From assembly GCA_963933045.1 (NCBI GenBank), contig CAWVTS010000001.1, positions 1,347 to 65,346 of the forward strand: a stretch of DNA of 64,000 nucleotides, in the 5' to 3' direction. Positions within the stretch are counted from its first letter, which is position 1; each line of letters opens with the position of its first letter. Position numbers and translations under genes: made by a program. Of this stretch, positions 18,150 to 45,827 are shown piece after piece. Source of the DNA: an uncultured Lutibacter sp. (GTDB lineage Bacteria; Bacteroidota; Bacteroidia; Flavobacteriales; Flavobacteriaceae). The notes under the pieces are model-generated. The model worked only from the letters and a program-made list of their open reading frames with translations. It was not told where the DNA came from and did no database searches.

Positions 18150-19262
18150 TTAGTTTTTACCAGTAATCATATTTACAGTTGCAACAGTTCTAAATCCTAA
18201 ATGATCGGATCCAGAATCTTTGCTAGTTGACATTCTTGCCGATATTCTATAACTGGCGCAGTATGAATCGTGACATAAATATGAACCTCCTTTCATTACC
18301 ATTTCAATTTGATATGGATTTTGAGGATTATAATATTCTTTAGATCCTGTTGGATTTATTATTATTTTAGAGGTATACAACTCTTTATAATAATTTGAAT
18401 CATAGATATCACTTGTCCACTCCCAAACGTTACCTATCATATCATATAAGCCTATACTATTTGGAGGGTAAGATTTTATAGGGGCTATATACTCAAACCC
18501 ATCTTTAGATTGATTTTTAATTGGAAATTTACCTTGCCATGTGTTGGCGTTATTATTTAAGGTTTCTGGGTTATCTCCCCAGGTAAATATAGCTTTAGTT
18601 TGGTTGCCTTGAGCAGCAGATTCCCATTCTGCTTCAGTAGGTAAACGTCTATTAGTCCATTTGCAATAAGCCTGTGCATCTTCATAAGCTACATGCACTA
18701 CGGGATAATTATCCTTACCTTCAATAGAACTTCCCACACCGTTTGGTAGTTTCCAGTTAGCACCAATTTTCCAGGTCCACCACTGGTTATAATTAGTCAT
18801 ATTAACTTCAGCATTTACTGCTTTATTAAAGGTCAAGCATCCTGGTTGTAGAATAGAATCATGAGGTTTTTTTGTATTTTTTGGAAGTTCTTTTTTCATC
18901 TCCTCCCAATTTATAAGTCGTTCTGCAACAGTTATATAATTTGTAGCTTTTACGAAGGTTTTAAATTGTTTGTTTGTAACCTCTGTAGCGTCTATAAAAA
19001 AACCATCTACTGTAACTAAATGAGCTGGTTTTTCTTTCATCACAGCAAATTTGTCATTAGATTTTGCTCCTTGTAAAAATGTTTTTCCTTTAACCCAAAT
19101 CATTCCTTCAGGAACTTTTAGGTTAGAAGGCTTTTCTTTTAAAATCTCGTAAGTCTTTTCTTTTTTCGCTTGCACCTTCTTCTTTGTTTCAGTTTTACAA
19201 TTGAAACACATTAGTATTACAGTAAGAATGAGCAGCTTTTGGATTTTTAATTGAAATTTCAT
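18150..19262 (-). CDS. Formylglycine-generating enzyme (SUMF1/FGE-sulfatase family), lipoprotein signal
   Basis: FFIDATEVTN.QF, YPVVHVAYEDAQAYC, RRLPTEAEWE, GLYDMIGNVWEW, KGGSYLCHDSYC (CxxxxC active site), HLGFRT; N-terminal LMCFNCK lipobox-like. Confidence 0.88.
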   Translation of the reverse strand: MKFQLKIQKLLILTVILMCFNCKTETKKKVQAKKEKTYEILKEKPSNLKVPEGMIWVKGKTFLQGAKSNDKFAVMKEKPAHLVTVDGFFIDATEVTNKQFKTFVKATNYITVAERLINWEEMKKELPKNTKKPHDSILQPGCLTFNKAVNAEVNMTNYNQWWTWKIGANWKLPNGVGSSIEGKDNYPVVHVAYEDAQAYCKWTNRRLPTEAEWESAAQGNQTKAIFTWGDNPETLNNNANTWQGKFPIKNQSKDGFEYIAPIKSYPPNSIGLYDMIGNVWEWTSDIYDSNYYKELYTSKIIINPTGSKEYYNPQNPYQIEMVMKGGSYLCHDSYCASYRISARMSTSKDSGSDHLGFRTVATVNMITGKN

Positions 19263-19458
19263 TAAGCAGTTTTTAATTACATTCAATTCTCAAAACTAAA
19301 CAAATTATAGATATTGAAGTTAAATACTTTTATATTATTCATATTTTCTTCTTATCGGAGTACTATTTTATATGTAAAAAAACTCAACATATATAATTTT
19401 TCACTTTATTAAATAATAAAATTTATCTTTATCACCACGTTAAATATAATTATATACA

Positions 19459-22400
19459 TTGAAGCTAATAACAAACATATTTTGTAGTGTATTTTTACTT
19501 TTTTTTAATGTGATTTTTTCACAAGAAAATATTGAATTTCAACAACTATCAGGTGAAAATGTTTCAACACAAAGTATTACTTATGCAATAAAACAAGATA
19601 GTATTGGAAATGTTTGGATTGCTTCTGAAGAAGGAGTTTTAAAGCACAACTCTAAATATTATAAAGTTTATAATACTTATAATGGATTGCCAGAGTCGGT
19701 TAGTAATCGTACAACACAACTTTTTATTGATTCTAAACAACGTGTTTGGATTGGTCTTGAAAATGGTGTTTGTTTATATGACGAGGTATTTGATAAGTTC
19801 AATTTAATAAAGAATAAAACAGATATTAATCCATCTTTAATTACTTCTATTACTGAGAGTTTGAATGAGAATATTTGGATTGGAGGTTATAATGGATTAT
19901 GGAAATATGACCCAAATGTTTCTAATAGTTCTATGACGCGAGTGTTAAATAATCATTCTATTCAGGCATTATATAGTTTTAAAAACAATATCATTTTTGG
20001 AACATCTAAAGGTTTATTTGTATATAACTTAATTAATAATAGTTTAGTTGAACTTAAATTAAGTGAGGACTTAAAAAATATAAGTGCAATAGGAATGTTT
20101 AATAATCGCCTATTGATAGGAACTAAATCTGGAGAGGTTTTTGAAATGGATTTTAATTTTAAGGAAATGAAATCAATTAATTTTGAAAAGAAAACTTTAA
20201 ATAAAATTAATGATTTTGAAGTAGACTCTTCCAATAATCTATATATCGCTACCGATGGAGATGGAATTTATTATATAAATAAAAGATACAAGATTCTGTA
20301 TCATTTCACAGAAGATGTTGACAATCCAAAGTCTATCTCTAGTAATGGTATTTATGATATAGAAATTGGACGTGAGGGTATTTTTTGGGTTGCAACTTAT
20401 GGAGGAGGAGTAAACTTTTATAGTTCAAATAGACTCCCTTTTCAGAAAATACAACATCAAATAAATAATCCAAATAGTTTAGTCTCAAATTTTACCAGAT
20501 CTATAGCTGTTGATAAGAATGATAATTTATGGTTTGGAACTAAAAAAGGAGTAAGTATTTGGAATACAAAAAAAAATGAATGGAAACATATAAGTACTTC
20601 ATCAAAAAATAAAAAACAAGATATTGTTCTTGCCTTAGCTTCTGATAATGATTTTATGTGGGTTGGAACTTACAATAATGGATTTTATAAAATAAATATC
20701 AATAGTTATAAGTCTGTAAATTATAATTCAAATACAGATAAATCAATAGTTAAAAAAGTCTATTCTATTTTTGAAGATAATAATAATATCTGGCTGGGAG
20801 GTATTGAAGGAGACTTGACGGTTATACGTCCTAATAAAAAAATTGATACTTATCCTATAAATCAAATAAAATTTATTACAAAATCTAGTTCTGGAAATAT
20901 CTTAATTGCCGGTAAAAATGGAGTTTACGAAATTGATGATGCAAAAAAAGAGTTTAAGCTTATTGAAAAGTTAAAGCCTAATAAAAACAACTTAGCATAT
21001 TCAACAGTAAATTCTATTTGTCAAACTAATGATGATAATTTGATTATTGCAACAAACGGTGCTGGCTTAGTGTTTTATGATTATAAGAACAACAGTATTA
21101 GAAAATTAACAGTTAATTCTGGGATGCCTTCAGATATTGTACAAGGAGTATTAGCAATTAATAACTCCGACATTTGGGCAAGTACTACAAAGGGGTTAGC
21201 ACATATTGTAACATCATCAAGAGATACAATTATTACTATTTTTGATAAACGAGATGGATTAGCAAGCACAGAATATAATTATGGGAGTTTTGCCAAGTTA
21301 AATAATAAATTATATGCTTTTGGAGGTGTAAATGGTGTTACTCTTTTTAATCCTGATAAAATACAGGACTCTAATTATAAACCCAAAATAAGTTTTGATG
21401 AATTTATATTGTTTGACAAAACTATTGAACCTGGATCTAAAATTTTAAAAAAACATATTAACTTAACTGATAATATTATACTTCAAAGTAATGAAAATTC
21501 AATTGAATTTAAGTTTACTGGTGTACTACAGAATTATTCTTCTAAAATAAAATATACATTTAGATTAGATGGCTTTAATGATGATTGGTCAGAGCCTAGT
21601 TTAAATAATTTCGCAACCTATACTAATCTAAATTCTGGTGATTATAGATTTAGAGTCAAGGCATTATATAAAAATAGAGATTTCGGAAAAGAACGTTTTG
21701 TAAATATCAAAATTGAATCCCCATGGTATGCTACCAAAACAGCTTTTTTATTCTACATCTTGCTTATAATAGGAATTATATATCTTATTATTCATTTTAC
21801 TAGTGTAATTATAAATAAGAAAAATGCTGATGAACAAATAAACTTTTTTAATAATATAACACACGAAATAAAAACGCCTCTCGCTATATTGATTTCATCA
21901 TTAGATGCTGTGACAGAAAAAATAGAATCAAATAATAAGTCAAAAGAAAGAATTAAAACTACTGTAAAAAGAATTAATTCGTTGTTTGAGCAAATGCTTA
22001 ACTTCCATAAAATCACATCACAAAACAGTATAAGTCAAGACGTCACAAAAATTAATTTAAACAAACTTATTGAACAAAGAGCACTTGATTTTCAGCCACT
22101 TAGCGAAGATAGAAATTTAGAAATAATTATTAATAATCGTTGGAATGATGATGTTTTTTATCATGATAAAGATATTTTTGATAAAATCTTATTAAACCTC
22201 ATTTCAAACTCAATTAAATACTCTTTTGACAATGGAAAAATTTATATCAATACATATAAAACAAAGCAAGGAGATTTAAAAATTGAATTTATTGACAAGG
22301 GGTTAGGGATCCCAAAAGATCAACAAAAATTTATTTTAAATAAATATTATAGAGCAAGAAACGTAATTAATAGCCAAAGACCTGGTACGGGATTAGGATT

Positions 22401-23358
22401 AGTAATGGTTAAAAAATTAATTGAGAAAGTTGGTGGCTCAATAAGTTTTATAAGTGAAGAAAATAAAGGAACGACATTCTCGATTTCACTTAAAAATTTA
22501 ATTAATGAATACACAAAGCAAACAATATCTAACGAAAATACAATTACTGTAGTAAAAAATCAATTAGAAGAATACTCTAATTTTGATGAGTTTAGTGATA
22601 GTAAAATTTTAATTGTTGAAGATAACGATGAATTAAGAGAAATCCTTGTGAACTCTCTTGGAGTTTATTTTCGAATTTATGAAGCAAAAAACGGAAAAGA
22701 GGGTATAGAAGTTGTGAGTCATGTATTTCCAGATATTATTCTTACAGATTTAATAATGCCTGAAATGGATGGAATGCAAATGTCTAAAAAAATAAAAGAG
22801 GATATCAACTTAAATCATATTCCAGTATTTATGCTAACAGTTTTACAAAACTCAACTCAAAAATTAGAAAGCATAGAAACCGGTATTGCAGCCTATATTG
22901 AAAAGCCAATTGACATGAAGTTTTTATTAGCTAAAATAACAAACACATTAAAATATCAAAGAAAGTTACGTAAGAAATATATTCAAGAAAGCGATACGGA
23001 TAATGCTACACTTTTTAGAAATAAAAATGATCAAGAATTTTTAAAAAAACTAGAAGAAAATATAATTAAAAATATTGAAGATAATTCTTTTTCTGTTTTA
23101 AATTTATCAGAAAATTTTGGCATGAGTAGAACTTCACTATATATGAAATTAAAAAATTTAGTTGATTTATCTCCCCAAGATTTTATAATTCACAACAAAT
23201 TAAAATATTCAAAGAAATTACTTATCAAGGGTGAAATGAGCATTAAAGAAATTGCTTATAGCTCGGGGTTTTCAAATCCAAAATATTTTAGTACTTCTTT
23301 TAAAAAATTCTACGGAATAACTCCTAGTGGTTTTTTAGAAAGTATCTTTAAGGAATAA
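19459..23358 (+). CDS. Hybrid two-component sensor/regulator (HTCS)
   Basis: Beta-propeller sensor repeats (DSIGNVWIAS, GIFWVATYGGG), Y_Y_Y domain, TM, HisKA FFNNITHEIKTPL, HATPase GTGLGL, REC TDLIMPEMDG, AraC HTH (IAYSSGFSNPKYFSTSFKK). Confidence 0.95.
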   Translation: MKLITNIFCSVFLLFFNVIFSQENIEFQQLSGENVSTQSITYAIKQDSIGNVWIASEEGVLKHNSKYYKVYNTYNGLPESVSNRTTQLFIDSKQRVWIGLENGVCLYDEVFDKFNLIKNKTDINPSLITSITESLNENIWIGGYNGLWKYDPNVSNSSMTRVLNNHSIQALYSFKNNIIFGTSKGLFVYNLINNSLVELKLSEDLKNISAIGMFNNRLLIGTKSGEVFEMDFNFKEMKSINFEKKTLNKINDFEVDSSNNLYIATDGDGIYYINKRYKILYHFTEDVDNPKSISSNGIYDIEIGREGIFWVATYGGGVNFYSSNRLPFQKIQHQINNPNSLVSNFTRSIAVDKNDNLWFGTKKGVSIWNTKKNEWKHISTSSKNKKQDIVLALASDNDFMWVGTYNNGFYKININSYKSVNYNSNTDKSIVKKVYSIFEDNNNIWLGGIEGDLTVIRPNKKIDTYPINQIKFITKSSSGNILIAGKNGVYEIDDAKKEFKLIEKLKPNKNNLAYSTVNSICQTNDDNLIIATNGAGLVFYDYKNNSIRKLTVNSGMPSDIVQGVLAINNSDIWASTTKGLAHIVTSSRDTIITIFDKRDGLASTEYNYGSFAKLNNKLYAFGGVNGVTLFNPDKIQDSNYKPKISFDEFILFDKTIEPGSKILKKHINLTDNIILQSNENSIEFKFTGVLQNYSSKIKYTFRLDGFNDDWSEPSLNNFATYTNLNSGDYRFRVKALYKNRDFGKERFVNIKIESPWYATKTAFLFYILLIIGIIYLIIHFTSVIINKKNADEQINFFNNITHEIKTPLAILISSLDAVTEKIESNNKSKERIKTTVKRINSLFEQMLNFHKITSQNSISQDVTKINLNKLIEQRALDFQPLSEDRNLEIIINNRWNDDVFYHDKDIFDKILLNLISNSIKYSFDNGKIYINTYKTKQGDLKIEFIDKGLGIPKDQQKFILNKYYRARNVINSQRPGTGLGLVMVKKLIEKVGGSISFISEENKGTTFSISLKNLINEYTKQTISNENTITVVKNQLEEYSNFDEFSDSKILIVEDNDELREILVNSLGVYFRIYEAKNGKEGIEVVSHVFPDIILTDLIMPEMDGMQMSKKIKEDINLNHIPVFMLTVLQNSTQKLESIETGIAAYIEKPIDMKFLLAKITNTLKYQRKLRKKYIQESDTDNATLFRNKNDQEFLKKLEENIIKNIEDNSFSVLNLSENFGMSRTSLYMKLKNLVDLSPQDFIIHNKLKYSKKLLIKGEMSIKEIAYSSGFSNPKYFSTSFKKFYGITPSGFLESIFKE

Positions 23359-23505
23359 AAACTTCACGTACTGTGTTGTAAATAAATTATTTAAATTTTT
23401 AATTCCTCTTTTTTTTAATTTCTTTTTTTTTAAACAAAAATGAGTTTTGACAATAAATATACCTTTTATGATGTTTTTTAACACTCAGAAATAGGATTAT
23501 AGGTG

Positions 23506-23525
23506 TAATTTCGTTGTAACGAAAT
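23506..23525 (+). promoter_or_regulatory. susC promoter -7-like element (TAATTTCG) overlapped by an 8-bp palindrome
   Basis: TAATTTCG at 23506-23513; ATTTCGTT-gt-AACGAAAT at 23508-23525, 8 nt before the ATG. Confidence 0.45.
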
Positions 23526-23533
23526 AAAATACC

Positions 23534-26500
23534 ATGAAGCAAATCAAACATTTATTTTTAATAACATTTCTGTTTCCTTTAATTATGTCTGCACAAAATA
23601 CAGTAGATGGAATTGTTCTAGATGAAAACAATTTTCCAATTCCAGGTGCATTTATTATTATAAAAGGAACTGATAAAGGAAAAATTACTGACTTTGATGG
23701 AAATTTTTCCATTGTCTTAGATAAATTCCCAAGTATATTAATCGTTAGTTTTTTAGGTTATGCTACTCAAGAAATTGTAATAGAAAACCAGCAAAAACTA
23801 ACGATAACCCTTAAAGAGGATAGTCAAAAATTAGATGAGGTTGTAATTATTGGTTATGGTGAGGTAAAGAGAAAAGATGTAACTGGTTCAATTACTTCAA
23901 TAAAGCCTTTAAGAAATTCTGTCGCACAAGCACAAGGTGTGGAAAACTTATTGCAAGGTAGAGCGGCAGGAGTTTTAGTAAGCGCTAATAGTAATGAGCC
24001 TGGAGCTACAGTAAGTGTAAAAATAAGAGGGACAAATAGTTTGACAGGAAATACTGAGCCGCTATATGTTATTGATGGTATTATTATGGATTCGGCAACA
24101 GAGGATGTTGTTGATCCGCTTCAAGGAAGTAATAGTTCTTTATCATCACAAAACGGAATCACTGGGGTTAATCCTAGAGATATTGAAAATATTGAAATAT
24201 TAAAAGATGCTTCAGCGACTGCTATTTATGGATCTCGAGGCGCTAATGGAGTAGTATTAATTACTACAAAAAAAGGAGAAAAAGGAGAAGCAAAATTTAA
24301 TTATGCTACCACAACTAGAATTGGTAAGGTAAGCAAGGAAATAGATATATTAGAGGCTGGTGAATATGTGAATTACTTCAATGATATTCAAGCAGTAAAT
24401 GGTAATCTACCACGTTTTTTTGTTTATTCTGATGGAAGTATTGCGGAGTTTGATACTAGTGAAGAATTCATGATTGAAAATTCAGGTGATATTGCGAGAT
24501 TAGACCCTATCAACTGGAATGATGATACTTATAAGACATCAGTGACTCAAAACCATCGTGTCACAACATCAGGAGGGGGAGATAATGGTGATTACTATTT
24601 CGGATTAGGATATGCAAAGAATGAAGGAGTTATTCCAAATGCTTTTGCAAAGAGTGTTGATTTTACAATGAAATTAAATAATGACTTGTCTGAAAAACTA
24701 AAATTATCAACAAAAGTATCTGCATATTATGGTGATTATTCTGCTTCAAAAGGAACTGAAGATCTTGGAGGAACAAATAGTAATTTAGTAAGACAAATTG
24801 TGACTGGAGCGCCTGTTTTAAATCTAAGTGATAATTTCTTTGGGTTAGAAGGCGATTTCTCTGAAGGTTTAGATGGTCCTAGAGTATGGATTAAAGATTA
24901 TGATGATCTCTCAAGAGAGGTGCGTATATTAGGATCTGTGTCATTAGATTATAAACTCTCTAAAGTATTTACTTATAATATTAGAATAGGTACTGATTAT
25001 AGAAATAAACAAAGAAAAGTATGGTATGGAACTTCTATTTTTAGAGGATCTAATGTTAATGGTGAAGCAGGTATTGCGACACTATCTAGATTTAGATACA
25101 ATATTGATAATACCTTAAGATTTAGAAAATCATTTAACAAAAATCATAGAATTAATGGTACAATAGGTGCTGTAATAGATCAAAGATTTTTACAACAAAT
25201 TGCAAATACTGGGTCAGGATTCGCAGTAAAAGATTTAAGAGCTGATGGGATAAGTAACGCAGAAGTAACACAGCCTAGCGTATTACTTCGTGAAAATGAA
25301 TCATTACTTTCATTTTTAGGTCGTTTCAATTATACATTCAAGAATAGATATCTTTTCACCGCAACTTATAGAGCTGACGGAAGTAGTCGTTTTGCGCCAG
25401 GAAATAGATGGGGTCATTTTCCAGCAGTTGCCTTGGCGTGGAAAATGGATAAAGAACCGTTTTTAAAAGATGTTGAGAGCATTGACGAGTTGAAACTAAG
25501 AGTTGGATGGGGACTTACTGGTAATCAAGCAATTCCAAATTATAGATTTTACACATTGATGACTGGATCAAATCTACCACCTTATGGTGATGTTTCTAAT
25601 GGATCTATAAATGGTTTGGTTCAACCTTTTCTTTCTAACCCAGATTTATTATGGGAAACTTCAGATCAGTATAACGCAGGTATTGATTTATCATTATGGG
25701 ATCGTGTTAACTTTACTGGAGATGTCTTTTATAAAGAAGTTACCGATTTACTTCAAAATAGAGAAATTCCTCCATCAAATGGTTTTACTCAGGTTTTTGT
25801 TAATGAAGGAACATTGATTAATAAAGGGATAGAATTAAGTTTAAATGCAGATGTGATTGATAATGAAAAATTCAAATGGAATGTGTTTGGTAATATTTCA
25901 TTCATAAAAAATAGAATAGAAAATTTAGGAATTCCACCTGCACCTTATGGTAGCGAGACTTATAGTGCTTATTTTGGGCGTATAGTTTCTGGAGGGAACC
26001 ATTTTAAAGTTCCCGCAAACATTTTTATCGAAGGTGAAGCTCCTGGATTATTCTTTGGTTTTGAAACTGATGGAATTATTAATGACCAAACAGAATTAGA
26101 TAATTCGCCCTCATTTCAAGGGGTTGCTCCTCAACTCGGCGATGTTAAATTGGTCGACCTAACTGGAGATGGAAATATTACTGATGCTGATAGAACCATA
26201 ATAGGAGATCCTAACCCAGATTTTAACTATGGATTTGGTTCTAGTTTTGAATATAAAGGACTTTCCCTAAGTTTTTTCTTTAACGGTGTTCAAGGAAATG
26301 ATATTGTTAATGGAAACTTACTTAGAGAAGGCTATGCAAGTGGTAGAAACTCAGACAATATTAGAGCGGTTGCTTATAATAATGCATGGTCTCCAGAGAA
26401 CCCTAACGGCACATATCCTAGATTAGGTTATGACTTAGAAACTACTACAGGACTTACAGATAGAATTGTTGAAGATGGTAGTTTATTGAGGCTTAACTAT

Positions 26501-33910: not shown

Positions 33911-33911
33911 T

Positions 33912-33945
33912 AAAAAAAGTGATAAATTTAATTATCGCTTTTTTT
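33912..33945 (+). terminator. Rho-independent terminator inside the PUL
   Basis: aaaaaagtgataa-attta a-ttatcgctttttt hairpin plus T-tract. Confidence 0.7.
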
Positions 33946-34015
33946 GGCGTAACTTCTGAATTAAACTAGCAGATAATAATAAAGTCTAAACTAAACTTTA
34001 ACTATTAAAATAGAA

Positions 34016-39003: not shown

Positions 39004-40722
39004 ATGAAACTCAAAACTTATTTTTTAACTTTTATTTTAGTTGTTGCTTTCGCTTGTTGTGAAGATGAAAATAATGATACAGCTGGAACCGGAATTATTG
39101 ATTTTAAAATTTCTGAAATTTCTGAAGTGGAAAATGCAACTAATTCACTTACACTTAATATTGGTATTGACAACTATAATCATTCTGGAGGAAGTGTTGA
39201 TGTTTCAATTTCAGGTGCAATCTATGGAGCTGACTATGAAACTAGTACTGGAAATTCATCTTTTACATTAGAAATTTCTGAAAACACATTAGTTTCTGGA
39301 TTTTCAATTATCCCCATAGATAATAATATATTAGATGGTAATAAAACCCTTACAATAACTTTATCAAATGCAGTTGGAGCTCTAGAGTTAGGAGAAAACA
39401 TTACGTTTAATTATCACATTATTGACAACGAAGAACCAATAATCTCTATTCTTAATTTTCAAAATACTGTATATGAAATTCAAGAAAATGATGCTAATAC
39501 AACAATGATAAATGTTGATTTTGATTTACCAACAACAGATGGAGGAACTATTGATGTAACCTCTTCAGGTGATGCTGTTTTTGGAACAGACTTTGCGATT
39601 GATGGTCAAACTTCTAGCAATTTTACTATTACGGTTCCTGCTGGAGCTACAAGTACTAGTTTTGATATTTCACCAATTGATAATGCTGATTTTGCAGCAA
39701 ATAAATCGGTAATTTTTACATTATTAAGTGTAGATGGAGGTTTAAGTCTTGGCGCGTTAGTTGAGACAGAAGTGACAGTAATAAATGATGATGCTTCGCC
39801 ATCAAAATTGATAGATTTTAACACAGGAAATGTTATAAGTATAAATGAAGATGCTGGAATGCTTACTGTAACTTTTGATCTTTCAGGAGTCACAATAGAT
39901 GATGCAACGGTAGAACTCACAGCAACTGGAACGGCAACTTCTGGAAGTGACTATACATTTGATGGTTCTTCAACAAACCCATATACATTTACTGTTTTAG
40001 CAGGAAGTTCAACAGCAACACTAGAAATTCCAATTACTGATGATACTGATATTGAATCAGATGAAACGGTAACTTTAGAGTTAACAAACGCTACTGGTGG
40101 ATTGGAAGTTGGAGTAAACAATACTCAATATATTTTTACAATTACTGATAATGATTTTATGCCATTTAATTATGTTGAAACATTTGAAACCGCATCAGAT
40201 TTAGCAGGTATTGGCTATGAAATATTATTTGCAACTCAAAACTTACCTACAAGCAGATTATTAAAGTACAATAATAACGCTGGAAAATATAGTGATGTAG
40301 ATGATGTGAATGCAGATTCGGATAGTGGGATAGTAATATTTTATAAAAACGATTTTGATGGAAATGGAGTTATCGATAATATGTTAGTCTCTCCAATTAT
40401 GGGGGTTACAGGCGATGTTACCGTATCATTTGATGTTGCTTTTGAACAAACTTCAACCTTTAATAATGCCGATGTGAAGTTTTACTATTCTGAAACTTAT
40501 AATGGATCTGAGACATGGACAGCATCAGACTGGATAGAAATGGGTTCTGAGACAGCACTACTTATGGAAGGAGAAGGCTTCGGTATAGGAGATTATAAAA
40601 GGAAAGAAATGAGTATTAATCCTACAGCAAGTTTTTATGTTGCAGTTAGGGTAAATCAAACAATTGATGATACTTATTGGAAAACACAATGGCGTTTTGA
40701 TAACATAAAAGTGTTAAACTAA
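39004..40722 (+). CDS. Surface lipoprotein with three Calx-beta-like repeats and a C-terminal beta-sandwich
   Basis: Lipobox FACC; three repeats with G.A..G.DY/F...T.T..AG.....F.I..IDN/DD...E..K....TL...GGL..G. Confidence 0.75.
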   Translation: MKLKTYFLTFILVVAFACCEDENNDTAGTGIIDFKISEISEVENATNSLTLNIGIDNYNHSGGSVDVSISGAIYGADYETSTGNSSFTLEISENTLVSGFSIIPIDNNILDGNKTLTITLSNAVGALELGENITFNYHIIDNEEPIISILNFQNTVYEIQENDANTTMINVDFDLPTTDGGTIDVTSSGDAVFGTDFAIDGQTSSNFTITVPAGATSTSFDISPIDNADFAANKSVIFTLLSVDGGLSLGALVETEVTVINDDASPSKLIDFNTGNVISINEDAGMLTVTFDLSGVTIDDATVELTATGTATSGSDYTFDGSSTNPYTFTVLAGSSTATLEIPITDDTDIESDETVTLELTNATGGLEVGVNNTQYIFTITDNDFMPFNYVETFETASDLAGIGYEILFATQNLPTSRLLKYNNNAGKYSDVDDVNADSDSGIVIFYKNDFDGNGVIDNMLVSPIMGVTGDVTVSFDVAFEQTSTFNNADVKFYYSETYNGSETWTASDWIEMGSETALLMEGEGFGIGDYKRKEMSINPTASFYVAVRVNQTIDDTYWKTQWRFDNIKVLN

Positions 40723-40753
40723 CTAAATAATTTTAAATCTAAATAATTAAAAA

Positions 40754-41092
40754 ATGAAAAAAATAATTTTTACAGCAATATTACTTATTGGATTTGCAGT
40801 TTCAGGATTTGCACAGTCAGATAAAATGAAAGAAAAAGCAAAAGAAAAAGTTGAGCAAATAAATACTCAAATAACTACTTCTGATAAATCTCTAGCCTTA
40901 ACTGATGAGCAGAGAGAGCAAATTTTTATTGTTCAAATTAATATGATGAAAGAAGTAAAAGTATTGCGAAAAGAAAAAGCAGAAAAAAATGCTATTAAAG
41001 CAGTTTATAAAAAATACGGTCAAAAAATATTTAAAGAGATTTTGACCAAAGAACAGATGAAAGCTCGTAAAATATCAAGAGAGAATAAATAA
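40754..41092 (+). CDS. Small secreted helical protein with LTxxQ-type motifs (Spy/CpxP-like)
   Basis: Signal peptide ending FA-Q; LALTDEQREQI and ILTKEQMK; Lys/Glu-rich. Confidence 0.55.
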   Translation: MKKIIFTAILLIGFAVSGFAQSDKMKEKAKEKVEQINTQITTSDKSLALTDEQREQIFIVQINMMKEVKVLRKEKAEKNAIKAVYKKYGQKIFKEILTKEQMKARKISRENK

Positions 41093-41097
41093 TTTCA

Positions 41098-42957
41098 ATG
41101 AAATATTTACTATACATAATACTATTTGCTTTTATCTCTTTAGAAACTATTGCCCAAATTACACCACAACAAATGGTTAGTAAAATGGGTCGAGGAATTA
41201 ATTTAGGTAATGTAATGAGCGCTCCTGAGGAAGGTGATTGGGCTCCAGAATTTCAAGAAACATATTTTCAAGATGTTGCAGATGCTGGTTTTACAACAGT
41301 TAGAATACCTATTCGTTTTGACACTCAAACCACTCCCTTATCAAGTGTAACATATACAGATGGGAACGGTGATTACATTGGCTCACCAAGTGATTATAAT
41401 GTAAACACAAGTTATTTAGATAGAATAGAGCTGATAACAGGTTGGGCTATTAGTAAAGACATGGTTGCAATAATAGATGTTCATGGTGATCATTGGTATT
41501 GGGAAAGTTATGATTCTGGATCCGACTATTATAAAACAGGAAATGATAGGCTTGCTGCGGAAGATCGTTTTAGGGCTATTTGGATAGCGATTTCAAATCG
41601 ATTTCAAAATAAATCAGAAGATTTACTTTTCGAAATTATGAATGAAGCCTATTTTAGCATGTCAGCTTCTGAAGTTGATATTGTTAATGCGGATATTCTT
41701 TCAATAATAAGACAAACTAACCTAACGAGAAATGTCATTGTAAATGGAGGCGGATTAGGTTCATGGGAAGCACCTTTGCAAATGTCACCAAGTTTTATAA
41801 ATAGTGATCCCTACCTTATTGCAACATTTCATTATTATAAACCTTTCAGTTTTACAAGTTCATCAAAAGAACAATATAATGATTTTGATTGGGGAACCCC
41901 TATGGATAAAACATCAATAGATACTCACTTTGATGCAGTATTAGAATTGTCTGAAACTTATGATATACCTATTCTTTTAGGTGAATTTGGAGCTGATAAC
42001 GAAGGAGGTTATAATTATTTTAATGAAACTTACGGAGCTTTTGGCGGTCCAGACAACGCCTCACGAGTTGCTTATCATAAATATTTGGCAGAAGGCGCAA
42101 TTAGCAGAGGCTTTGCTTTTACAGCTTGGGATGCAGGTGAGAAATCTAATAAAGCCATCTACAAAGTTTCAGATAGAACTTGGGTAGAAGATGTTAGAGA
42201 TGCTTTGTTAGGTACAACAGCAACCTGCACAACATCAGGAATTATTTTAAATGCAGATGTGGAATGTGGTTTTGATCAAGATTGGAATTTTTTAGTGCAA
42301 ACTCCAGCCGCAGCAACTAACTCTGCTTCAGGAGTTCTAGATGCGAATAATGGTGGCATTGCTATGCAAATAGATGTTACTGTATCAGATGCGCTTCACA
42401 AAGTTTTATTGCGTAATGTAGAAGTAACAGATTCAGCATTGGCAGAAAAAACATTTACCTTTAGTTTATATGCTAAAGGAAGTGCAAATACCGAAGAATT
42501 TAAAATACGATTAAAAGCAACAGATAATGTTGGTGAAGAATCATTTAATGCGTCACCAATATTCACACTGACTTCAAGTTATCAGTTGTTTGAATTTGAA
42601 TATACAGTTGCTGCTAATACTTCTTCCTTAGAGTTTCAAATAATTTGCGGTAATAAAACGGGAACCTATTATTTTGATGATTTTTCTGTAACAGAAGAGA
42701 CATTAAGTATATCAGACTTTAATGCTGAAAATAAAATTGTAGTTTATCCAAACCCAGCGAGTAATTACATAACAATTAATGCTCAAGAAAATATTAAAAA
42801 AATTGAATTATATGATATTAAAGGAATGTCATATAAAATAAACCTTACTAATAACTCAATTAAATTGCCAAATGTTGATAATGGTATATATTTTATTAAA
42901 ATCATATTTAATAATAATAAAACGAGATATAAAAAATTACTAATTCACAATAACTAA
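41098..42957 (+). CDS. GH5 endo-glycanase + CBM-like domain + T9SS C-terminal domain
   Basis: MGRGINLGN, VRIPIRF, IIDVH, acid/base FEIMNE, ATFHYY, nucleophile LLGEFG; CBM4/9-like module; CTD VYPNPASN..GIYFIKI. Confidence 0.9.
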   Translation: MKYLLYIILFAFISLETIAQITPQQMVSKMGRGINLGNVMSAPEEGDWAPEFQETYFQDVADAGFTTVRIPIRFDTQTTPLSSVTYTDGNGDYIGSPSDYNVNTSYLDRIELITGWAISKDMVAIIDVHGDHWYWESYDSGSDYYKTGNDRLAAEDRFRAIWIAISNRFQNKSEDLLFEIMNEAYFSMSASEVDIVNADILSIIRQTNLTRNVIVNGGGLGSWEAPLQMSPSFINSDPYLIATFHYYKPFSFTSSSKEQYNDFDWGTPMDKTSIDTHFDAVLELSETYDIPILLGEFGADNEGGYNYFNETYGAFGGPDNASRVAYHKYLAEGAISRGFAFTAWDAGEKSNKAIYKVSDRTWVEDVRDALLGTTATCTTSGIILNADVECGFDQDWNFLVQTPAAATNSASGVLDANNGGIAMQIDVTVSDALHKVLLRNVEVTDSALAEKTFTFSLYAKGSANTEEFKIRLKATDNVGEESFNASPIFTLTSSYQLFEFEYTVAANTSSLEFQIICGNKTGTYYFDDFSVTEETLSISDFNAENKIVVYPNPASNYITINAQENIKKIELYDIKGMSYKINLTNNSIKLPNVDNGIYFIKIIFNNNKTRYKKLLIHNN

Positions 42958-42980
42958 ATATTAACTTTAAATTAAATATA

Positions 42981-44270
42981 ATGAAGAAAATTACTTTACT
43001 CGTATTACTAATTTCAACTGTCTTTACAGGATTTGCACAAGATGTTGAGTACAACTTTAATACTGATGGAGATAACGAAGGGTGGGAGGCATCTGGAGTT
43101 AATCTTACAACTGCTAGTGGAATTATGAATGTAGAAATTATTTCTCCTACTAATGGATTCCAAGGAACAAGAAGCTCTGACGCTTTGGCATTAGCAGAAG
43201 CCAATTATTTAACGTTAAGAATTGTTGTAGAAAACAATGTTTTACTTGTAGATGGTACAACTCCTGTAACTGCTTTTCAGATTATTAATTATGATACTGG
43301 TTCTACTAGTATTGGAGATGCAGTAAAAACAGATGTAACTATACCTGCTGGCGGTTATAATACAATGGATATAATGATACCAAGCAATCCAGATAATAGT
43401 GGTACTATAGATAGATTAGGACTTAGAATAAAGTCAGGGGCAAATACATTAGATGCATCATCAAATTTTAATTTAGATTCAGCTATTATTCTTTTTTCAG
43501 GTACAGTAACTTCAACGTTTAGCGGATTTGTTCAAAACCCATGTTTTGAAAATGTTACAGGTGATATTGCCCCTTGGGTAGTTACAGGTGATGGTACTAG
43601 TTCACTTTCTACAGATGCAAGTGTTGGTGCACAAGCAGTAAAAGTTGATTTAACAGGAACTTCAAATACATTTTTGGAAAATGGTTATACTTGGGCTTTT
43701 GATTCTCCTCAAGTTGTTGCTTCTACTGGTGACCAAGTAACAATTACTTGGGATATGAAATCGAATAGTACTGCTCTTAAAGTTGCTGGGAGATTTATTT
43801 TAGGAGGGGCAGAAAATCAAGTTTTGGTTACTGCTGCAAAGAGTGTCACTGTTGCTGACACATATGAATCATTTAGTGTTACAAAAGTATTAGATGCACA
43901 AGATGGAAATTTTTATGATAATATCAATTCATTAAGTTTTAGAATTCAACTTGGTGAAGTAGGTGATTATGTATTTATTGACAATGTTACTACAACTGTT
44001 ACTATTAATGGTGCAGTTCTTAATGTTGAAAAGAATGGTTTAGAATCTTTTACAATGTATCCAAACCCAGTAAATGACATTTTGAATATTATTAGTGTAA
44101 ATGATATAAATGAAATTAAAATATTTGATATGACAGGTAAAAATGTATATGCTAGAAATGAAATTGCTAATAATCAAATTAATGTATCATCATTAAATCC
44201 TGGAATTTATTTTATAAAAATAAAAGACATTAATAATTCAATATCAACAAAAAAATTAATTAAAAATTAA
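42981..44270 (+). CDS. T9SS-secreted non-catalytic protein with CBM-like domains
   Basis: Signal peptide; YNFNTDGDNEGW, QNPCFEN..WVV (CBM-like starts); CTD FTMYPNPVND..GIYFIKI; no catalytic motif recognised. Confidence 0.7.
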   Translation: MKKITLLVLLISTVFTGFAQDVEYNFNTDGDNEGWEASGVNLTTASGIMNVEIISPTNGFQGTRSSDALALAEANYLTLRIVVENNVLLVDGTTPVTAFQIINYDTGSTSIGDAVKTDVTIPAGGYNTMDIMIPSNPDNSGTIDRLGLRIKSGANTLDASSNFNLDSAIILFSGTVTSTFSGFVQNPCFENVTGDIAPWVVTGDGTSSLSTDASVGAQAVKVDLTGTSNTFLENGYTWAFDSPQVVASTGDQVTITWDMKSNSTALKVAGRFILGGAENQVLVTAAKSVTVADTYESFSVTKVLDAQDGNFYDNINSLSFRIQLGEVGDYVFIDNVTTTVTINGAVLNVEKNGLESFTMYPNPVNDILNIISVNDINEIKIFDMTGKNVYARNEIANNQINVSSLNPGIYFIKIKDINNSISTKKLIKN

Positions 44271-44310
44271 TTTTTTTTGCTAGGAATTTAATGTATATTC
44301 TAAATAACAT

Positions 44311-44346
44311 AAAACTTCCTCTTTTTTACTAAAAGGAAGTTTTTTT
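44311..44346 (+). terminator. Rho-independent terminator
   Basis: aaaacttcct...aggaagtttt hairpin plus T-tract after the T9SS gene. Confidence 0.7.
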
Positions 44347-44378
44347 GTTAAAAATAATAACTAATCTATATTTTAATT

Positions 44379-45827
44379 ATGAGTAGCACATCAAACAAAA
44401 AAATAAACATCTATTTTATAACTATTGCAATTACACTTGGCGGTCTCCTTTTTGGTTATGATACAGGCGTAATTAATGGCACGCAATTTTTCTTCTCAAA
44501 GTATTTTGAATTAACAGGTTTTATAAAAGGTTTTATTGTAAGTAGTGCGCTCTTAGGAGCTTTAGTTGGTGCTGCAGGTTCAGGTGTCTTAAGTAAATCT
44601 ATAGGGAGAAAAAGTTCATTAATAATAGCAGCAGTTTTATTTGCTGTTTCGGCTTGGGGTTCTGGCTTGCCTAGTTTTATGGGAGATTCTATTAATTTAT
44701 TGGTATTCTTTAGAATATTGGGAGGTATTGCTATTGGTATTGCATCAATGAATGCGCCAATGTATATTGCTGAAATTGCGCCAGCTGAAAAAAGAGGAAC
44801 TCTTGTGACTTTTTATCAGTTAGCCATAGTAATTGGTTTCTTTGTAGTTTTTTTAGCGACCTATTTTATTGGAAATAATTTAACTGAAGCTCAAAACATT
44901 GAATATGGTTGGCGACAAATGTTTTGGTCAGAGTTAATCCCAGCTTTATTATTTTTAGCTCTTTTATTTTTTGTCCCAAAAAGTCCAAGATGGCTAATGG
45001 TTAAGGGTAGAGAAGATGAAGCTTTAAATATATTAACAAGAATCCATGGCGAAGATATTGCAAATAAAGAAATAGTAGAAATTAGAAATTCTATACAAAG
45101 TGAAAAGTCTAAAATTAAAGCCTCTATTTATGTAAAGCCTCTACTTGGAATTGTTGTAATTGGTACAATACTTTCAGCCTTGCAGCAATTTACAGGGATA
45201 AATGCAGTTTTATATTATGGTGCAGATATTTTTGAACAAGCTTTGGGTTTTGGTAAAGATGATGTTTTGAAACAACAAATTTTATTGGCATCCGTAAACT
45301 TAGTTTTTACCTTTATTGCCATGTTTACAGTCGATAAGTTAGGAAGGAAACCATTGTTAATTATTGGAGGTTTTGGAATGCTTATTGGTTTTCTATTGAT
45401 GGGATTCACTTTATATTTTAGTGATTATTCTAACATAAATGCTGCTGGTCTTCCCGCTTTATCTTCTTCCGAAGGAGTCGTTAGTTTAATAGGAGTACTT
45501 ATTTTTATTGCGTCTTTTGCTATGTCAATGGGTCCAGTTGTTTGGGTTATTCTTTCTGAAATATTTCCTAATAGAATTAGAAGTGTTGCTATGTCCATTG
45601 CTGTTGCGGTTCAATGGTTGGCTAATTATTTTGTATCCCAAACATTCCCTGTAATTGTAGAAAGCGATGCAAACAAGTTACAACTTGATGGGGGAACTTG
45701 GAATAATGCACTTCCATATTTTATTTTTTCAACTTTTATAATCATAATAATCCTTTTTGTTTGGAAATATATCCCAGAAACTAAAGGTAAAACTTTAGAA
45801 GAAATGGAAACCTTATTTGAAAAATAA
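44379..45827 (+). CDS. xylE: Sugar porter MFS transporter (XylE-like)
   Basis: LGGLLFGYDTGVING, PMYIAEIAP, FVPKSPRWL, QQFTGINAVLYY, SMGPVVWVILSEIFP, PETKGKTLEE. The substrate is not certain. Confidence 0.85.
   Translation: MSSTSNKKINIYFITIAITLGGLLFGYDTGVINGTQFFFSKYFELTGFIKGFIVSSALLGALVGAAGSGVLSKSIGRKSSLIIAAVLFAVSAWGSGLPSFMGDSINLLVFFRILGGIAIGIASMNAPMYIAEIAPAEKRGTLVTFYQLAIVIGFFVVFLATYFIGNNLTEAQNIEYGWRQMFWSELIPALLFLALLFFVPKSPRWLMVKGREDEALNILTRIHGEDIANKEIVEIRNSIQSEKSKIKASIYVKPLLGIVVIGTILSALQQFTGINAVLYYGADIFEQALGFGKDDVLKQQILLASVNLVFTFIAMFTVDKLGRKPLLIIGGFGMLIGFLLMGFTLYFSDYSNINAAGLPALSSSEGVVSLIGVLIFIASFAMSMGPVVWVILSEIFPNRIRSVAMSIAVAVQWLANYFVSQTFPVIVESDANKLQLDGGTWNNALPYFIFSTFIIIIILFVWKYIPETKGKTLEEMETLFEK

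What the first reader, a model, noticed from the sequence alone, without database searches (positions are those of the whole stretch)
18150..45827. Self-contained sulfated-glycan PUL with an unusual GH10 + GH5 + GH3 + four-sulfatase set
Seen: HTCS, SusC/D, GH3, four different S1 sulfatases, GH10, GH5-CBM-T9SS and a XylE-like porter. There are no lyases, GH16, rhamnosidases, fucosidases or galactosidases, so it does not look like a standard carrageenan, agar, ulvan, fucoidan or GAG locus. Known: GH10/GH5/GH3 act on beta-xylans and beta-glucans; S1_7 and S1_8 members remove xylose sulfates in the Formosa agariphila ulvan pathway; S1_11 acts on 6-O-sulfated gluco-sugars. Inference: the target is a multiply sulfated beta-xylan or xylo-glucan, a poorly characterised marine substrate class.
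Basis: partly seen in the sequence, partly recalled or inferred. Interest (0 to 1): 0.72.

Follow-up and report, generated by a model that had tools for sequence, protein, structure and literature searches.

The report
Compact predicted sulfated-xylan utilization locus
This is a real, intact gene cluster that a marine flavobacterium most likely uses to eat a sulfated, xylose-containing algal sugar polymer, but the same cluster type is widespread and was already catalogued (though never tested biochemically) as a "sulfated xylan" locus.

Summary
Window 18150-45827 carries one same-strand run of HTCS, SusC/D, GH3, four Cys-type S1 sulfatases, GH10, GH5-CBM-T9SS and a XylE-like porter. A divergent FGE sits at its 5' end. 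All catalytic motifs are intact.

- the FGE;
- a Calx-beta surface lipoprotein;
- a conserved 112-aa basic protein;
- a T9SS protein that folds like a tandem CBM22.

By closest solved structures, the sulfatases fall in S1_11, S1_7, S1_16 and S1_8.

The set is not unusual. The same gene order recurs in all 12 related loci examined, from at least nine Flavobacteriaceae genera. Most of those relatives carry more sulfatases, a second GH10, esterases and sometimes a GH29. Published North Sea PUL catalogues (2018-2020) already describe GH10 + GH3 (+GH5) + sulfatase loci as predicted "sulfated xylan / xylose-containing sulfated polysaccharide" PULs, with SusC/D detected in bloom metaproteomes.

I found no biochemical characterisation, so the substrate remains inferred. 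The 6-O-type (S1_11) and 4-O-type (S1_16) sulfatases argue against a plain sulfated beta-1,4-xylan. They fit better with a mixed-linkage or hexose-containing sulfated hemicellulose.

Verdict: a compact new member of a known, still uncharacterised PUL class. Interest is moderate.

The parts
18150..19286 (-). Formylglycine-generating enzyme (FGE/SUMF1-like), divergent from the PUL. It matures the Cys-type sulfatases.
   Evidence: PF03781 at E 7e-72 over the full profile. The motif GGSYLCHDSYC holds both active-site Cys (motif assignment from my knowledge of SUMF1).
19459..23358 (+). Hybrid two-component system regulator: beta-propeller/Y_Y_Y sensor, HisKA, HATPase, receiver and AraC HTH.
   Evidence: Pfam domains. 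The start codon is the mechanical ORF start, not verified.
23534..26716 (+). SusC-like TonB-dependent transporter.
   Evidence: CarbopepD_reg_2, Plug and TonB barrel domains. Exact metatranscriptome contigs lie on it.
26729..28261 (+). SusD-like lipoprotein.
   Evidence: SusD_RagB and SusD-like_3 domains. A Cys follows the signal peptide.
28277..30667 (+). GH3 exo-beta-glycosidase; xylosidase versus glucosidase is unresolved.
   Evidence: GH3 N, C and Fn3-like domains. The best PDB hits are beta-xylosidases 7ZB3 and 8C7F, followed by beta-glucosidases. All NCBIfam equivalogs score below cut-off. The nucleophile motif GFYVSDW is present.
30669..32309 (+). Sulfatase A, S1_11-like (6-O-sulfohexose type), lipoprotein.
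   Evidence: Best PDB hits are 5G2V (1e-133), 7P24 and 7LHA. The next subfamily scores only 1e-45. Motif CGPSR is present.
32309..33910 (+). Sulfatase B, S1_7-like (closest to the ulvan xylose-2-sulfatase P18_S1_7).
   Evidence: Best PDB hits are 6HHM (1e-74), then iduronate-2-sulfatase. Motif CGPSR is present.
34016..35398 (+). Sulfatase C, S1_16-like (4-O-sulfate type); moderate confidence in the subfamily.
   Evidence: Best PDB hit is 9FO1, 'k-carrageenan sulfatase S1_16' (8e-71), followed by 6UST, 7STT and 7OZA. Motif CVPSR is present.
35408..37153 (+). GH10 with an N-terminal CBM-like beta-sandwich; a divergent clade.
   Evidence: PF00331 over residues 234-499. Invariant WDVVNE (E355) and ISEF (E461). 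The model has pLDDT 91. The best folds are 8B73 and 7D88 at 22-24% identity, and the CBM22-GH10 and CBM15-GH10 architectures align along the whole length.
37158..38828 (+). Sulfatase D, S1_8-like (2-O-sulfate type), lipoprotein. It starts 4 nt after the GH10 stop.
   Evidence: Best PDB hits are 9BB9, 9BBA and 9BBD, i.e. S1_8A/C/B (1e-74 to 1e-61). Motif CGPSR is present. The junction sequence was read directly.
39004..40722 (+). Lipoprotein with Calx-beta-like repeats and a C-terminal choice-of-anchor-J domain. It is probably surface-exposed and glycan-binding or structural.
   Evidence: Calx-beta is a weak hit. NF038128 scores above cut-off. The N-terminus reads ...AFACCEDENN. It is conserved at 47-49% identity in relatives.
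40754..41092 (+). Small secreted Lys-rich helical protein, 112 aa, mature pI about 9.8, function unknown.
   Evidence: No Pfam hit. It sits in the same position, upstream of the GH5, in 9 relatives at 38-58% identity.
41098..42957 (+). GH5 endo-beta-1,4-glycanase + CBM4_9-like module + T9SS C-terminal sorting domain (secreted or cell-surface).
   Evidence: PF00150, PF02018 and PF18962. The best PDB hit is CtCel5E 4U3A (2e-53), a bifunctional cellulase/xylanase. The NE(183) and GE(296)FG motifs are present.
42981..44270 (+). T9SS-secreted non-catalytic protein: two beta-sandwich (CBM22/CBM4-like) domains plus a sorting domain.
   Evidence: Only PF18962 by sequence. One homologue carries PF02018. 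The model is all-beta with pLDDT 70, and the best fold is the tandem CBM22 of 4XUP (E 7e-10).
44311..44343 (+). Hairpin followed by a T-run between the T9SS protein and the porter; a likely intrinsic terminator.
   Evidence: Sequence AAAACTTCCTCTTTTTTACTAAAAGGAAGTTTTTTTG. Its function is inferred.
44379..45827 (+). MFS sugar porter, XylE-like.
   Evidence: PF00083 at 5e-116. NCBIfam XylE gives 485 bits, below the 608 cut-off. PDB 4GBY scores 4e-111. Of the XylE sugar-contact residues checked, F24, Q168, Q288, Q289, N294, Y298, N325, W392, Q415 and W416 are conserved, and Q175 is replaced by F (residue list from my knowledge of Sun et al. 2012).

Best explanation
The interval is a canonical Bacteroidota polysaccharide utilization locus. 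It is a compact member of the conserved marine-flavobacterial PUL class already predicted to target 'sulfated xylan / xylose-containing sulfated polysaccharide'.

Proposed mechanism. The domain content and motifs are shown; the order of steps and the localisations are inferred.
1. At the cell surface, the T9SS-exported GH5-CBM endo-beta-1,4-glycanase makes the first cuts. The T9SS tandem-CBM22-like protein and the acidic-N-terminus Calx-beta lipoprotein help hold the polymer.
2. SusC/D import sulfated oligosaccharides.
3. In the periplasm, four Cys-type sulfatases strip sulfate esters. The adjacent FGE activates them. Going by their subfamilies, S1_7 and S1_8 take 2-O-sulfate (as on xylose-2-sulfate in ulvan), S1_16 takes 4-O-sulfate and S1_11 takes 6-O-sulfate on a hexose.
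4. The CBM-bearing GH10 then cleaves the exposed beta-xylan-type backbone. GH3 releases monosaccharides from the non-reducing end.
5. The XylE-like porter takes up xylose, or possibly glucose.
6. The HTCS senses an oligosaccharide intermediate and switches the locus on.

Because 6-O- and 4-O-type sulfatases are core genes, the substrate is more likely a heteropolymer than a plain sulfated beta-1,4-xylan. Candidates are sulfated mixed-linkage beta-1,3/1,4-xylan together with, or carrying, sulfated beta-glucose.
For: - Domain content and intact catalytic motifs.
- Subfamily proximity of the sulfatases to solved S1_11, S1_7, S1_16 and S1_8 enzymes.
- Published Xyl-2-sulfatase activity of P18_S1_7 and P32_S1_8 (PMC9096561; PMC8360166). 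Published general 2-O specificity of S1_8 (PMC12549532).
- The GH10 model shows canonical GH10 acid/base and nucleophile residues and a CBM-like N-terminus.
- The closest solved relative of the GH5 is a cellulase/xylanase.
- The T9SS protein resembles tandem CBM22, a module typical of GH10 xylanases.
- The porter is XylE-like.
- Tight same-strand packing.
- The order GH3-S1_11-S1_7-S1_16-GH10-S1_8-Calx-small ORF-GH5 is conserved in 12 loci from Psychroserpens, Algibacter, Aureibaculum, Winogradskyella, Kordia, Polaribacter, Nonlabens, Siansivirga and uncultured Flavobacteriaceae.
- The sulfatases are the best-conserved proteins, at 65-88% identity.
- Published predictions and in situ SusC/D expression exist for this PUL class.
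- Small exact-match contigs in one metatranscriptome cover SusC, GH3, three sulfatases, GH10 and the Calx protein together.
- Red-algal walls are reported to contain sulfated xylans, sulfated mixed-linked xylans and sulfated mixed-linked glucans (PMC12223506).
Against: - No enzyme of this locus type has been assayed. I found no such work.
- The GH10 is only 22-24% identical to any solved xylanase.
- The GH3 cannot be assigned to xylosidase or glucosidase.
- The sulfatase subfamily was inferred from best PDB hits, not from SulfAtlas models. A subfamily does not fix regio- or sugar specificity; for example, S1_7 also contains a Gal-4-sulfatase.
- S1_11 enzymes act on hexose-6-sulfate, which xylose cannot carry.
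- No xylose catabolic genes lie in the window.
- The metatranscriptome evidence consists of low-depth assembled contigs that could include DNA.
- Relatives carry a GH29 fucosidase, acetylesterases and beta-helix proteins, so the family's substrate may be more complex than a xylan.
Confidence: 0.6

Rival explanations
1. The main target is a sulfated beta-glucan, for example the sulfated mixed-linkage glucan of red algae or a 6-sulfated beta-glucan from microalgae. GH5 and GH3 would be the key depolymerases and S1_11 would remove Glc-6-sulfate. The GH10 would act as a glucanase or on a minor xylose component.
For: - The GH5's best hits are endoglucanases.
- GH3 is as close to beta-glucosidases as to xylosidases.
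- S1_11 is a 6-O-sulfohexose subfamily.
- XylE-type sites also bind glucose (my knowledge).
- Sulfated mixed-linked glucans occur in red algae.
Against: - The GH10 with canonical GH10 motifs is the conserved centre of the locus.
- S1_7 and S1_8 are closest to xylose-2-sulfatase-containing subfamilies.
- The tandem CBM22-like protein points to xylan.
- There is no GH16 or GH17 of the kind typical for marine beta-glucan PULs.
Confidence: 0.15
2. The interval is a composite of two functional units. The first is a SusCD-GH3-sulfatase-GH10 module for sulfated oligosaccharides. The second is an independently expressed surface module (Calx lipoprotein, small protein, GH5-CBM, CBM protein, porter) for an unsulfated beta-glycan. 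The 'GH10+GH5+sulfatase set' would then not reflect a single substrate.
For: - A 175-nt gap precedes the Calx gene, and there is a terminator-like hairpin before the porter.
- In the metatranscriptomes, no contigs were seen on GH5 or the CBM protein while the upstream genes were covered.
- Krueger's pattern 1 does not mention GH5.
Against: - The Calx-small ORF-GH5 block follows the GH10/sulfatase block in most relatives, across genera.
- Formosa PUL136 also combines GH10, sulfatases and GH5.
- Zero contig depth is not evidence of no RNA (the tool's own caveat).
Confidence: 0.12
3. The locus targets an animal-type sulfated glycan (glycosaminoglycan or mucin-like). S1_7, S1_8, S1_11 and S1_16 are the subfamilies of iduronate-2-sulfatase, sulfamidase, GlcNAc-6-sulfatase and Gal/GalNAc-4-sulfatases.
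For: The top PDB hits include human IDS, SGSH, and Bacteroides and Akkermansia mucin/GAG sulfatases.
Against: - There is no GAG lyase (PL8/12/13/15/21), no GH88 and no GH20/GH89/GH2.
- The glycoside hydrolases are GH10, GH5 and BglX-type GH3.
- The porter is XylE-like.
- The relatives add acetyl-xylan-type esterases and a second GH10.
Confidence: 0.04

Closest known systems
Predicted 'sulfated xylan / xylose-containing sulfated polysaccharide' PULs of North Sea Flavobacteriia: Formosa sp. Hel3_A1_48 PUL136 (Kappelmann 2018, PMC6298971); pattern 1 of Krueger 2019 (PMC6794258); Polaribacter clades 1-a, 1-b and 3-b (Avci 2020, PMC7242417)
   Same: All have HTCS + SusC/D + GH10 next to a sulfatase + GH3 + further sulfatases. 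PUL136 also lists a GH5 endoglucanase and hypothetical proteins. The ecological setting is the same, namely marine Flavobacteriaceae.
   Different: - In the window, GH10 and the S1_8 sulfatase are separate genes 4 nt apart, not one 'sulfatase domain-containing GH10'.
- The window has no GH30, esterase, PL9 or GH43.
- The window holds only four sulfatases.
- None of these published loci has been characterised biochemically.
Formosa agariphila KMM 3901 ulvan PUL (Reisky 2019; summarised in PMC9096561 and PMC8360166)
   Same: It uses S1_7 (P18, PDB 6HHM) and S1_8 (P32) sulfatases to remove xylose-2-sulfate from oligosaccharides before exo-glycosidases act. Sulfatase B here is closest to 6HHM.
   Different: The ulvan PUL depends on PL28/PL24/PL25 lyases, GH78/GH105/GH88-type enzymes and an S1_25 rhamnose sulfatase. 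None of these is present here.
Unsulfated xylan PULs of Bacteroidota (gut Bacteroides GH10/GH3/GH43 loci; marine Flavimarina sp. Hel_I_48 xylan PULs)
   Same: They share the SusC/D + HTCS + GH10 endo-xylanase + exo-glycosidase + sugar porter logic (cites the B. xylanisolvens parallel).
   Different: - They have no sulfatases or FGE.
- They normally carry GH43/GH67/GH115/CE debranching enzymes, which are absent here.
- The GH10 here belongs to a divergent clade, at most 24% identical to solved xylanases.
Pseudoalteromonas lambda-carrageenan cascade (PMC12549532)
   Same: Its S1_8A/B/C 2-O-sulfohydrolases are the closest solved relatives of sulfatase D. It follows the same exo-sulfatase-then-exo-glycosidase logic.
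   Different: It acts on a galactan substrate with GH150/GH110/GH2 and has no GH10, GH5 or GH3.

Membership tests
Bacteroidota polysaccharide utilization locus (PUL) | Adjacent susC-like and susD-like gene pair | tested here: met
   SusC 23534-26716 and SusD 26729-28261, 12 nt apart.
Bacteroidota polysaccharide utilization locus (PUL) | Co-localised CAZymes and a dedicated regulator | tested here: met
   GH3, GH10 and GH5 lie on the same strand. The HTCS sits immediately upstream.
Published 'sulfated xylan' PUL pattern 1 (Krueger 2019) | GH10 carrying a sulfatase domain | tested here: inconclusive
   GH10 and the S1_8 sulfatase are adjacent but separate: stop at 37153, ATG at 37158. In relatives the two genes abut or overlap by up to 4 nt. 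No GH10-sulfatase fusion was seen among 120 GH10 homologues or 150 S1_8 representatives.
Published 'sulfated xylan' PUL pattern 1 (Krueger 2019) | GH3 plus at least two further sulfatases in the same PUL | tested here: met
   GH3 and three further sulfatases are present.
Published 'sulfated xylan' PUL pattern 1 (Krueger 2019) | Orthology of SusC/D to the published loci (SusC/D tree cluster) | not testable with these tools
   The published sequences (Formosa Hel3_A1_48, the MAGs) could not be fetched.
S1 formylglycine-dependent sulfatases | C/S-x-P-x-R-xxxx-TG signature and the alkaline-phosphatase-like sulfatase fold domain | tested here: met
   All four carry C-[GV]-P-S-R-xxxx-TG at residues 89, 93, 70 and 77. 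PF00884 scores 1e-33 to 6e-58.
S1 formylglycine-dependent sulfatases | A maturation enzyme is available | tested here: met
   An FGE is encoded next door, with both active-site Cys.
SulfAtlas subfamilies S1_11 / S1_7 / S1_16 / S1_8 | Placement by SulfAtlas subfamily HMM or phylogeny | not testable with these tools
   Only a proxy was available, the best-scoring solved structures. The score gaps are clear for S1_11, S1_7 and S1_8. The gap is less clear for S1_16.
GH10 | (beta/alpha)8 barrel with an acid/base Glu in WDVVNE and a nucleophile Glu in the (I/V)TE(L/F)D-type motif | tested here: met
   E355 and E461 are invariant in 33 sequences. The model has pLDDT 91 and matches GH10 structures.
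GH10 | Endo-beta-1,4-xylanase activity | not testable with these tools
   Needs an enzyme assay. Identity to characterised xylanases is only 22-24%.
GH5 (CtCel5E/TmCel5A-like endoglycanases) | Catalytic NE...GE(F/W)G Glu pair and the PF00150 domain | tested here: met
   E183 and E296 are present. PF00150 scores 1e-38. 4U3A scores 2e-53. The CAZy subfamily number was not tested.
D-xylose:H+ symporter XylE | NCBIfam equivalog score above cut-off | tested here: not met
   NF007484 gives 485.5 bits against a cut-off of 608. The sugar-porter subfamily TIGR00879 is met, at 397 against 237.8. So it is XylE-like, not a proven XylE.
D-xylose:H+ symporter XylE | Conservation of the sugar-contact residues of E. 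coli XylE | tested here: met
   Of the contact residues checked, 10 are conserved and 1 differs (Q175 to F) in the alignment to 4GBY. The residue list is from memory, and these residues do not separate xylose from glucose.
T9SS cargo | C-terminal type A sorting domain | tested here: met
   PF18962/TIGR04183 is present on the GH5 (1.5e-10) and on the CBM-like protein (2e-15).

The most novel reading that the evidence does not exclude
The locus family degrades a structurally undescribed sulfated hetero-xylan or xylo-glucan made by cold-water phytoplankton or sea-ice algae. Its core enzymes would have activities new for their families: a GH10 clade that accepts sulfated or mixed-linkage xylan, an S1_11 acting on glucose-6-sulfate, and an S1_16 acting on xylose-4-sulfate. 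The conserved basic 112-aa protein would have a dedicated role with the polyanionic substrate.
Probability: 0.3. Interest if true: 0.7.

Novelty: new member of a known kind. Interest (0 to 1): 0.4.

Why it matters
Predicted sulfated-xylan PULs are among the few recurrent PUL types of bloom-responding marine Bacteroidota, so they bear on algal carbon turnover. Even so, neither the polymer nor any enzyme of the pathway has been defined.

This instance is a stripped-down version: four sulfatases, one from each of four subfamilies, plus one GH10, one GH5 and one GH3. It comes from an uncultured flavobacterium found in Tara and sea-ice metagenomes. That gives a minimal core set to reconstitute in vitro.

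If the positional inferences hold (2-O, 4-O and 6-O desulfation), they would constrain the structure of an uncharacterised marine polysaccharide. The finding does not reveal a new kind of system.

Tried and rejected
1. Source organism. The genome-collection scan found only relatives of 77% identity or less. The exact sequence occurs only in marine, Tara and ice metagenomes, so no species name can be given.
2. Sigma-70 promoter and terminator scan. It was uninformative: 54 promoter-like sites against 56 expected, and Bacteroidota use a different consensus. No exact TAnnTTTG motif lies in the intergenic gaps.
3. Rfam scan of the whole window. It found only tRNA-Leu.
4. A hidden lyase or other enzyme in the unassigned proteins. 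This was rejected. The T9SS protein is an all-beta tandem CBM-like protein. The Calx protein consists of repeats plus a choice-of-anchor-J domain.
5. GH10-sulfatase fusion proteins, sought to tie the window to Krueger's 'sulfatase domain-containing GH10'. None was found among the top hits. Esterase-S1_8 and esterase-GH10 fusions turned up instead.
6. Literature search for a biochemical characterisation or a 'xylan sulfatase'. None was found.
7. Mapping conserved basic residues onto the GH10 cleft. This was not possible, because model coordinates are not exposed.
8. Relatedness of the GH5 CBM to the T9SS protein. It is only marginal (E 0.058).
9. GAG/mucin reading of the sulfatase set. It was considered and rejected for lack of any matching glycosidase or lyase.

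Full report
**What is there.**
The genes are:
- a divergently oriented FGE (18150-19286, minus strand);
- an HTCS regulator, then SusC and SusD;
- a BglX-type GH3;
- three sulfatases, a GH10 and a fourth sulfatase;
- a lipoprotein with Calx-beta-like repeats and a choice-of-anchor-J domain;
- a 112-aa ORF;
- a GH5 with a CBM4_9-like module and a T9SS sorting domain;
- a second T9SS protein;
- an MFS sugar porter.

Fourteen of the fifteen genes share the + strand. The gaps between them run from a 1-nt overlap to 175 nt. The fourth sulfatase really starts at ATG 37158, 4 nt after the GH10 stop, not at the mechanical TTG at 37128.

The flanks are housekeeping genes. Upstream lie L25, PRPP synthetase and tRNA-Leu. 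Downstream lie dCMP deaminase, an S41 peptidase and a MoxR/Bat operon. The locus boundaries are therefore clean, but no xylose catabolic genes lie in the 64-kb window.

**Are the enzymes functional?**
- All four sulfatases carry the Cys-type C-x-P-S-R-xxxx-TG signature.
- The FGE has the GGSYLCHDSYC motif, which holds both catalytic cysteines (motif from my knowledge of SUMF1).
- In the GH10, WDVVNE (E355) and ISEF (E461) are invariant across 33 homologues. So are the GH10-typical N271/K274, H304/W308 and Q430/H432 (residue roles from my knowledge of the GH10 family).
- The GH5 has the NE (E183) and GEFG (E296) motifs. The GH3 has the GFYVSDW nucleophile motif.

**Sulfatase types.**
I could not run SulfAtlas, so I used the closest solved structures as a proxy.
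- Sulfatase A: 5G2V, 7P24 and 7LHA, which are GlcNAc-6- and L-Gal-6-sulfatases of S1_11. E values run from 1e-133 to 1e-102, and the next family scores 1e-45.
- Sulfatase B: 6HHM, the F. agariphila P18_S1_7 xylose-2-sulfatase, at 1e-74, followed by human iduronate-2-sulfatase.
- Sulfatase C: 9FO1, named 'k-carrageenan sulfatase S1_16', at 8e-71. The separation from other families is less sharp.
- Sulfatase D: S1_8A, S1_8C and S1_8B of the lambda-carrageenan cascade, at 1e-74 to 1e-61.

S1_8 enzymes are described as 2-O-sulfohydrolases in general (PMC12549532). The inferred positional repertoire is therefore 2-O (twice), 4-O and 6-O. This is an inference from subfamily membership, not a demonstration.

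**The glycoside hydrolases.**
*GH10.* The GH10 (581 aa) folds with high confidence (pLDDT 91). It has an N-terminal beta-sandwich, a short linker domain, a TIM barrel and C-terminal strands. The nearest structures are AcXyn10A (8B73) and XynA (7D88), at only 22-24% identity. CBM22-GH10 and CBM15-GH10 enzymes align over the full length, which suggests the N-terminus is a CBM-like module. It belongs to a large clade of proteins about 580 aa long. The search gave 388 hits at E<=1e-10. All 120 listed hits are at least 50% identical, and their named sources are all marine Flavobacteriaceae.

*GH5.* Its closest solved relative is CtCel5E, a bifunctional endo-cellulase/endo-xylanase.

*GH3.* It sits between beta-xylosidases (7ZB3, 8C7F) and beta-glucosidases. 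It reaches no NCBIfam equivalog cut-off.

*Porter.* It is XylE-like: 4GBY scores 4e-111 and most sugar-contact residues are kept. It falls below the XylE equivalog cut-off.

**The unassigned proteins.**
The 429-aa T9SS protein has no Pfam hit apart from its sorting domain. With an alignment of 20 homologues it models as two beta-sandwiches plus the sorting domain (pLDDT 70). Its best structural match is the tandem CBM22 of Paenibacillus Xyn10C, and CBM4 and SGBP-B also match. It is therefore a secreted binding protein, not a hidden lyase.

The Calx-beta lipoprotein has a strongly acidic sequence after its lipidated Cys (CCEDENN). I read this, from general knowledge of Bacteroidota lipoprotein export signals, as a sign of surface exposure.

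The 112-aa ORF (40754-41092) encodes a secreted, Lys-rich protein with a mature pI of about 9.8 and no known domain. It is conserved upstream of the GH5 in nine relatives.

**Is the set unusual?**
No. The GH10 scan of one-genome-per-species contigs returned nine loci. Three look-ups of more distant GH10 homologues added Polaribacter sp. SA4-12, Nonlabens sp. YIK11 and Siansivirga zeaxanthinifaciens.

In all twelve loci the GH10 sits among orthologues of the same sulfatases. Wherever the fetched DNA reaches far enough, the order is GH3, S1_11, S1_7, S1_16, GH10, S1_8, Calx protein, small ORF, GH5. The sulfatases are the most conserved proteins (65-88% identity). SusD (42-61%) and the CBM-like protein (30-37%) are the least conserved.

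Most relatives are larger. Depending on the locus they carry:
- seven to eight sulfatases;
- a second short GH10;
- a T9SS protein of about 600 aa;
- SASA- and GDSL-type esterases;
- beta-helix T9SS proteins;
- a GH29 fucosidase with CBM35, in Kordia and one uncultured Flavobacteriaceae genome (L009).

The window therefore holds a reduced core version of the locus.

**What is already published.**
- Kappelmann et al. 2018 list 'PUL136, Formosa sp. [quoted passage not shown] Its genes include a GH10 annotated with a sulfatase, a further sulfatase, an esterase, hypothetical proteins, a GH5 endoglucanase, an AraC-type regulator, SusC/D and GH30. They detected related SusC/D proteins in 2009 bloom metaproteomes.
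- Krueger et al. [quoted passage not shown] It occurs in Formosa, Aurantivirga and Polaribacter MAGs.
- Avci et al. 2020 assign such PULs to Polaribacter clades 1-a, 1-b and 3-b, with in situ expression.

Five full-text searches found no enzymology or defined substrate for this PUL type. Nevertheless the architecture and the inference drawn from it are not new.

**Expression.**
The exact sequence occurs in marine, Tara and sea-ice metagenomes. Two marine metatranscriptomes contain small contigs matching the locus. In run X24, exact-match contigs lie on SusC, GH3, sulfatases A, B and C, GH10 and the Calx gene. This is weak evidence that the glycosidases and sulfatases are transcribed together in situ. 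The contigs are low-depth and could contain DNA, and absence of contigs means nothing.

**What the substrate probably is.**
A linear beta-1,4-xylan offers only O2 and O3 for sulfation. The conserved S1_16-type (4-O) and S1_11-type (6-O, hexose) sulfatases, together with a cellulase-like GH5 and an ambiguous GH3, point to something more complex. One option is beta-1,3/1,4 mixed-linkage xylan, which has a free O4 on its 3-linked residues. The other is a polymer containing 6-sulfated hexose. Red-algal walls are reported to contain sulfated xylans, sulfated mixed-linked xylans and sulfated mixed-linked glucans (PMC12223506). Kappelmann et al. also mention 'sulfated xyloglucans'. The esterases and the fucosidase in relatives imply further decorations in some lineages. 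All of this is inference.

**Verdict.**
The locus is a compact new member of a known, ecologically prominent and biochemically uncharacterised PUL class. My confidence by claim is:
- about 0.95 that it is a sulfated-glycan PUL;
- about 0.85 that it belongs to the published 'sulfated xylan' class;
- about 0.6 that the substrate is a sulfated xylose-containing beta-glycan processed as described.

Noticed in passing
window 40754-41092 (+): A conserved 112-aa secreted, Lys-rich protein (mature pI about 9.8) with no Pfam hit. It always sits between the Calx-beta lipoprotein and the GH5 in nine related loci at 38-58% identity. A basic protein in a polyanion-degrading locus is suggestive, but its function is unknown.
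   Followed up: partly
L003, L006-L012 (relatives); e.g. L007 6780-8567, L009 18577-19449, L003 8905-9990, L010 5863-6996: Orthologous loci in other genera carry extra genes that the window lacks. These are a GH29 fucosidase with CBM35, SASA- and GDSL-type esterases, a second short GH10, a T9SS protein of about 600 aa, large beta-helix T9SS proteins and three to four more sulfatases. The window locus is a reduced core version.
   Followed up: partly
P0029/P0030 (Kordia GH10, 851 aa); P0298, P0246, P0208 (S1_8-type sulfatases): Natural fusions of esterase domains (alpha/beta-hydrolase BD-FAE type, GDSL) to this GH10 clade and to S1_8-type sulfatases. They hint that deacetylation is coupled to desulfation and backbone cleavage in related systems.
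   Followed up: no
window 17699-17781 (+): A tRNA-Leu(CAA) lies directly upstream of the FGE end of the locus. It could mark an insertion hotspot. The flanks in relatives were not compared.
   Followed up: no
window 45828-46633: About 800 nt without a convincing ORF and with no Rfam hit, between the porter and dCMP deaminase. Metatranscriptome contigs cover 45737-46082 and 46565-46937.
   Followed up: partly
window 33911-33950 and 44311-44343: Hairpins followed by T-runs after sulfatase B and after the T9SS CBM-like protein. They may act as an attenuator and a terminator that split the locus into transcription units.
   Followed up: partly
window 49497-57729 (+): A MoxR AAA ATPase, DUF58/VWA, BatA-like VWA proteins, TPR proteins and BatD together form a complete Bacteroides-aerotolerance (Bat)-type operon downstream.
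   Followed up: no
window 57726-59934 (-): A C-5 cytosine DNA methyltransferase (58702-59934) sits next to a 317-aa protein with no Pfam hit (57726-58679). This may be a restriction-modification pair.
   Followed up: no
window 4986-12558 (+): A UvrD-type helicase and a PD-(D/E)XK nuclease form an AddAB-like pair. They are separated by an OmpA-family protein with thrombospondin type 3 repeats (8273-9733).
   Followed up: no
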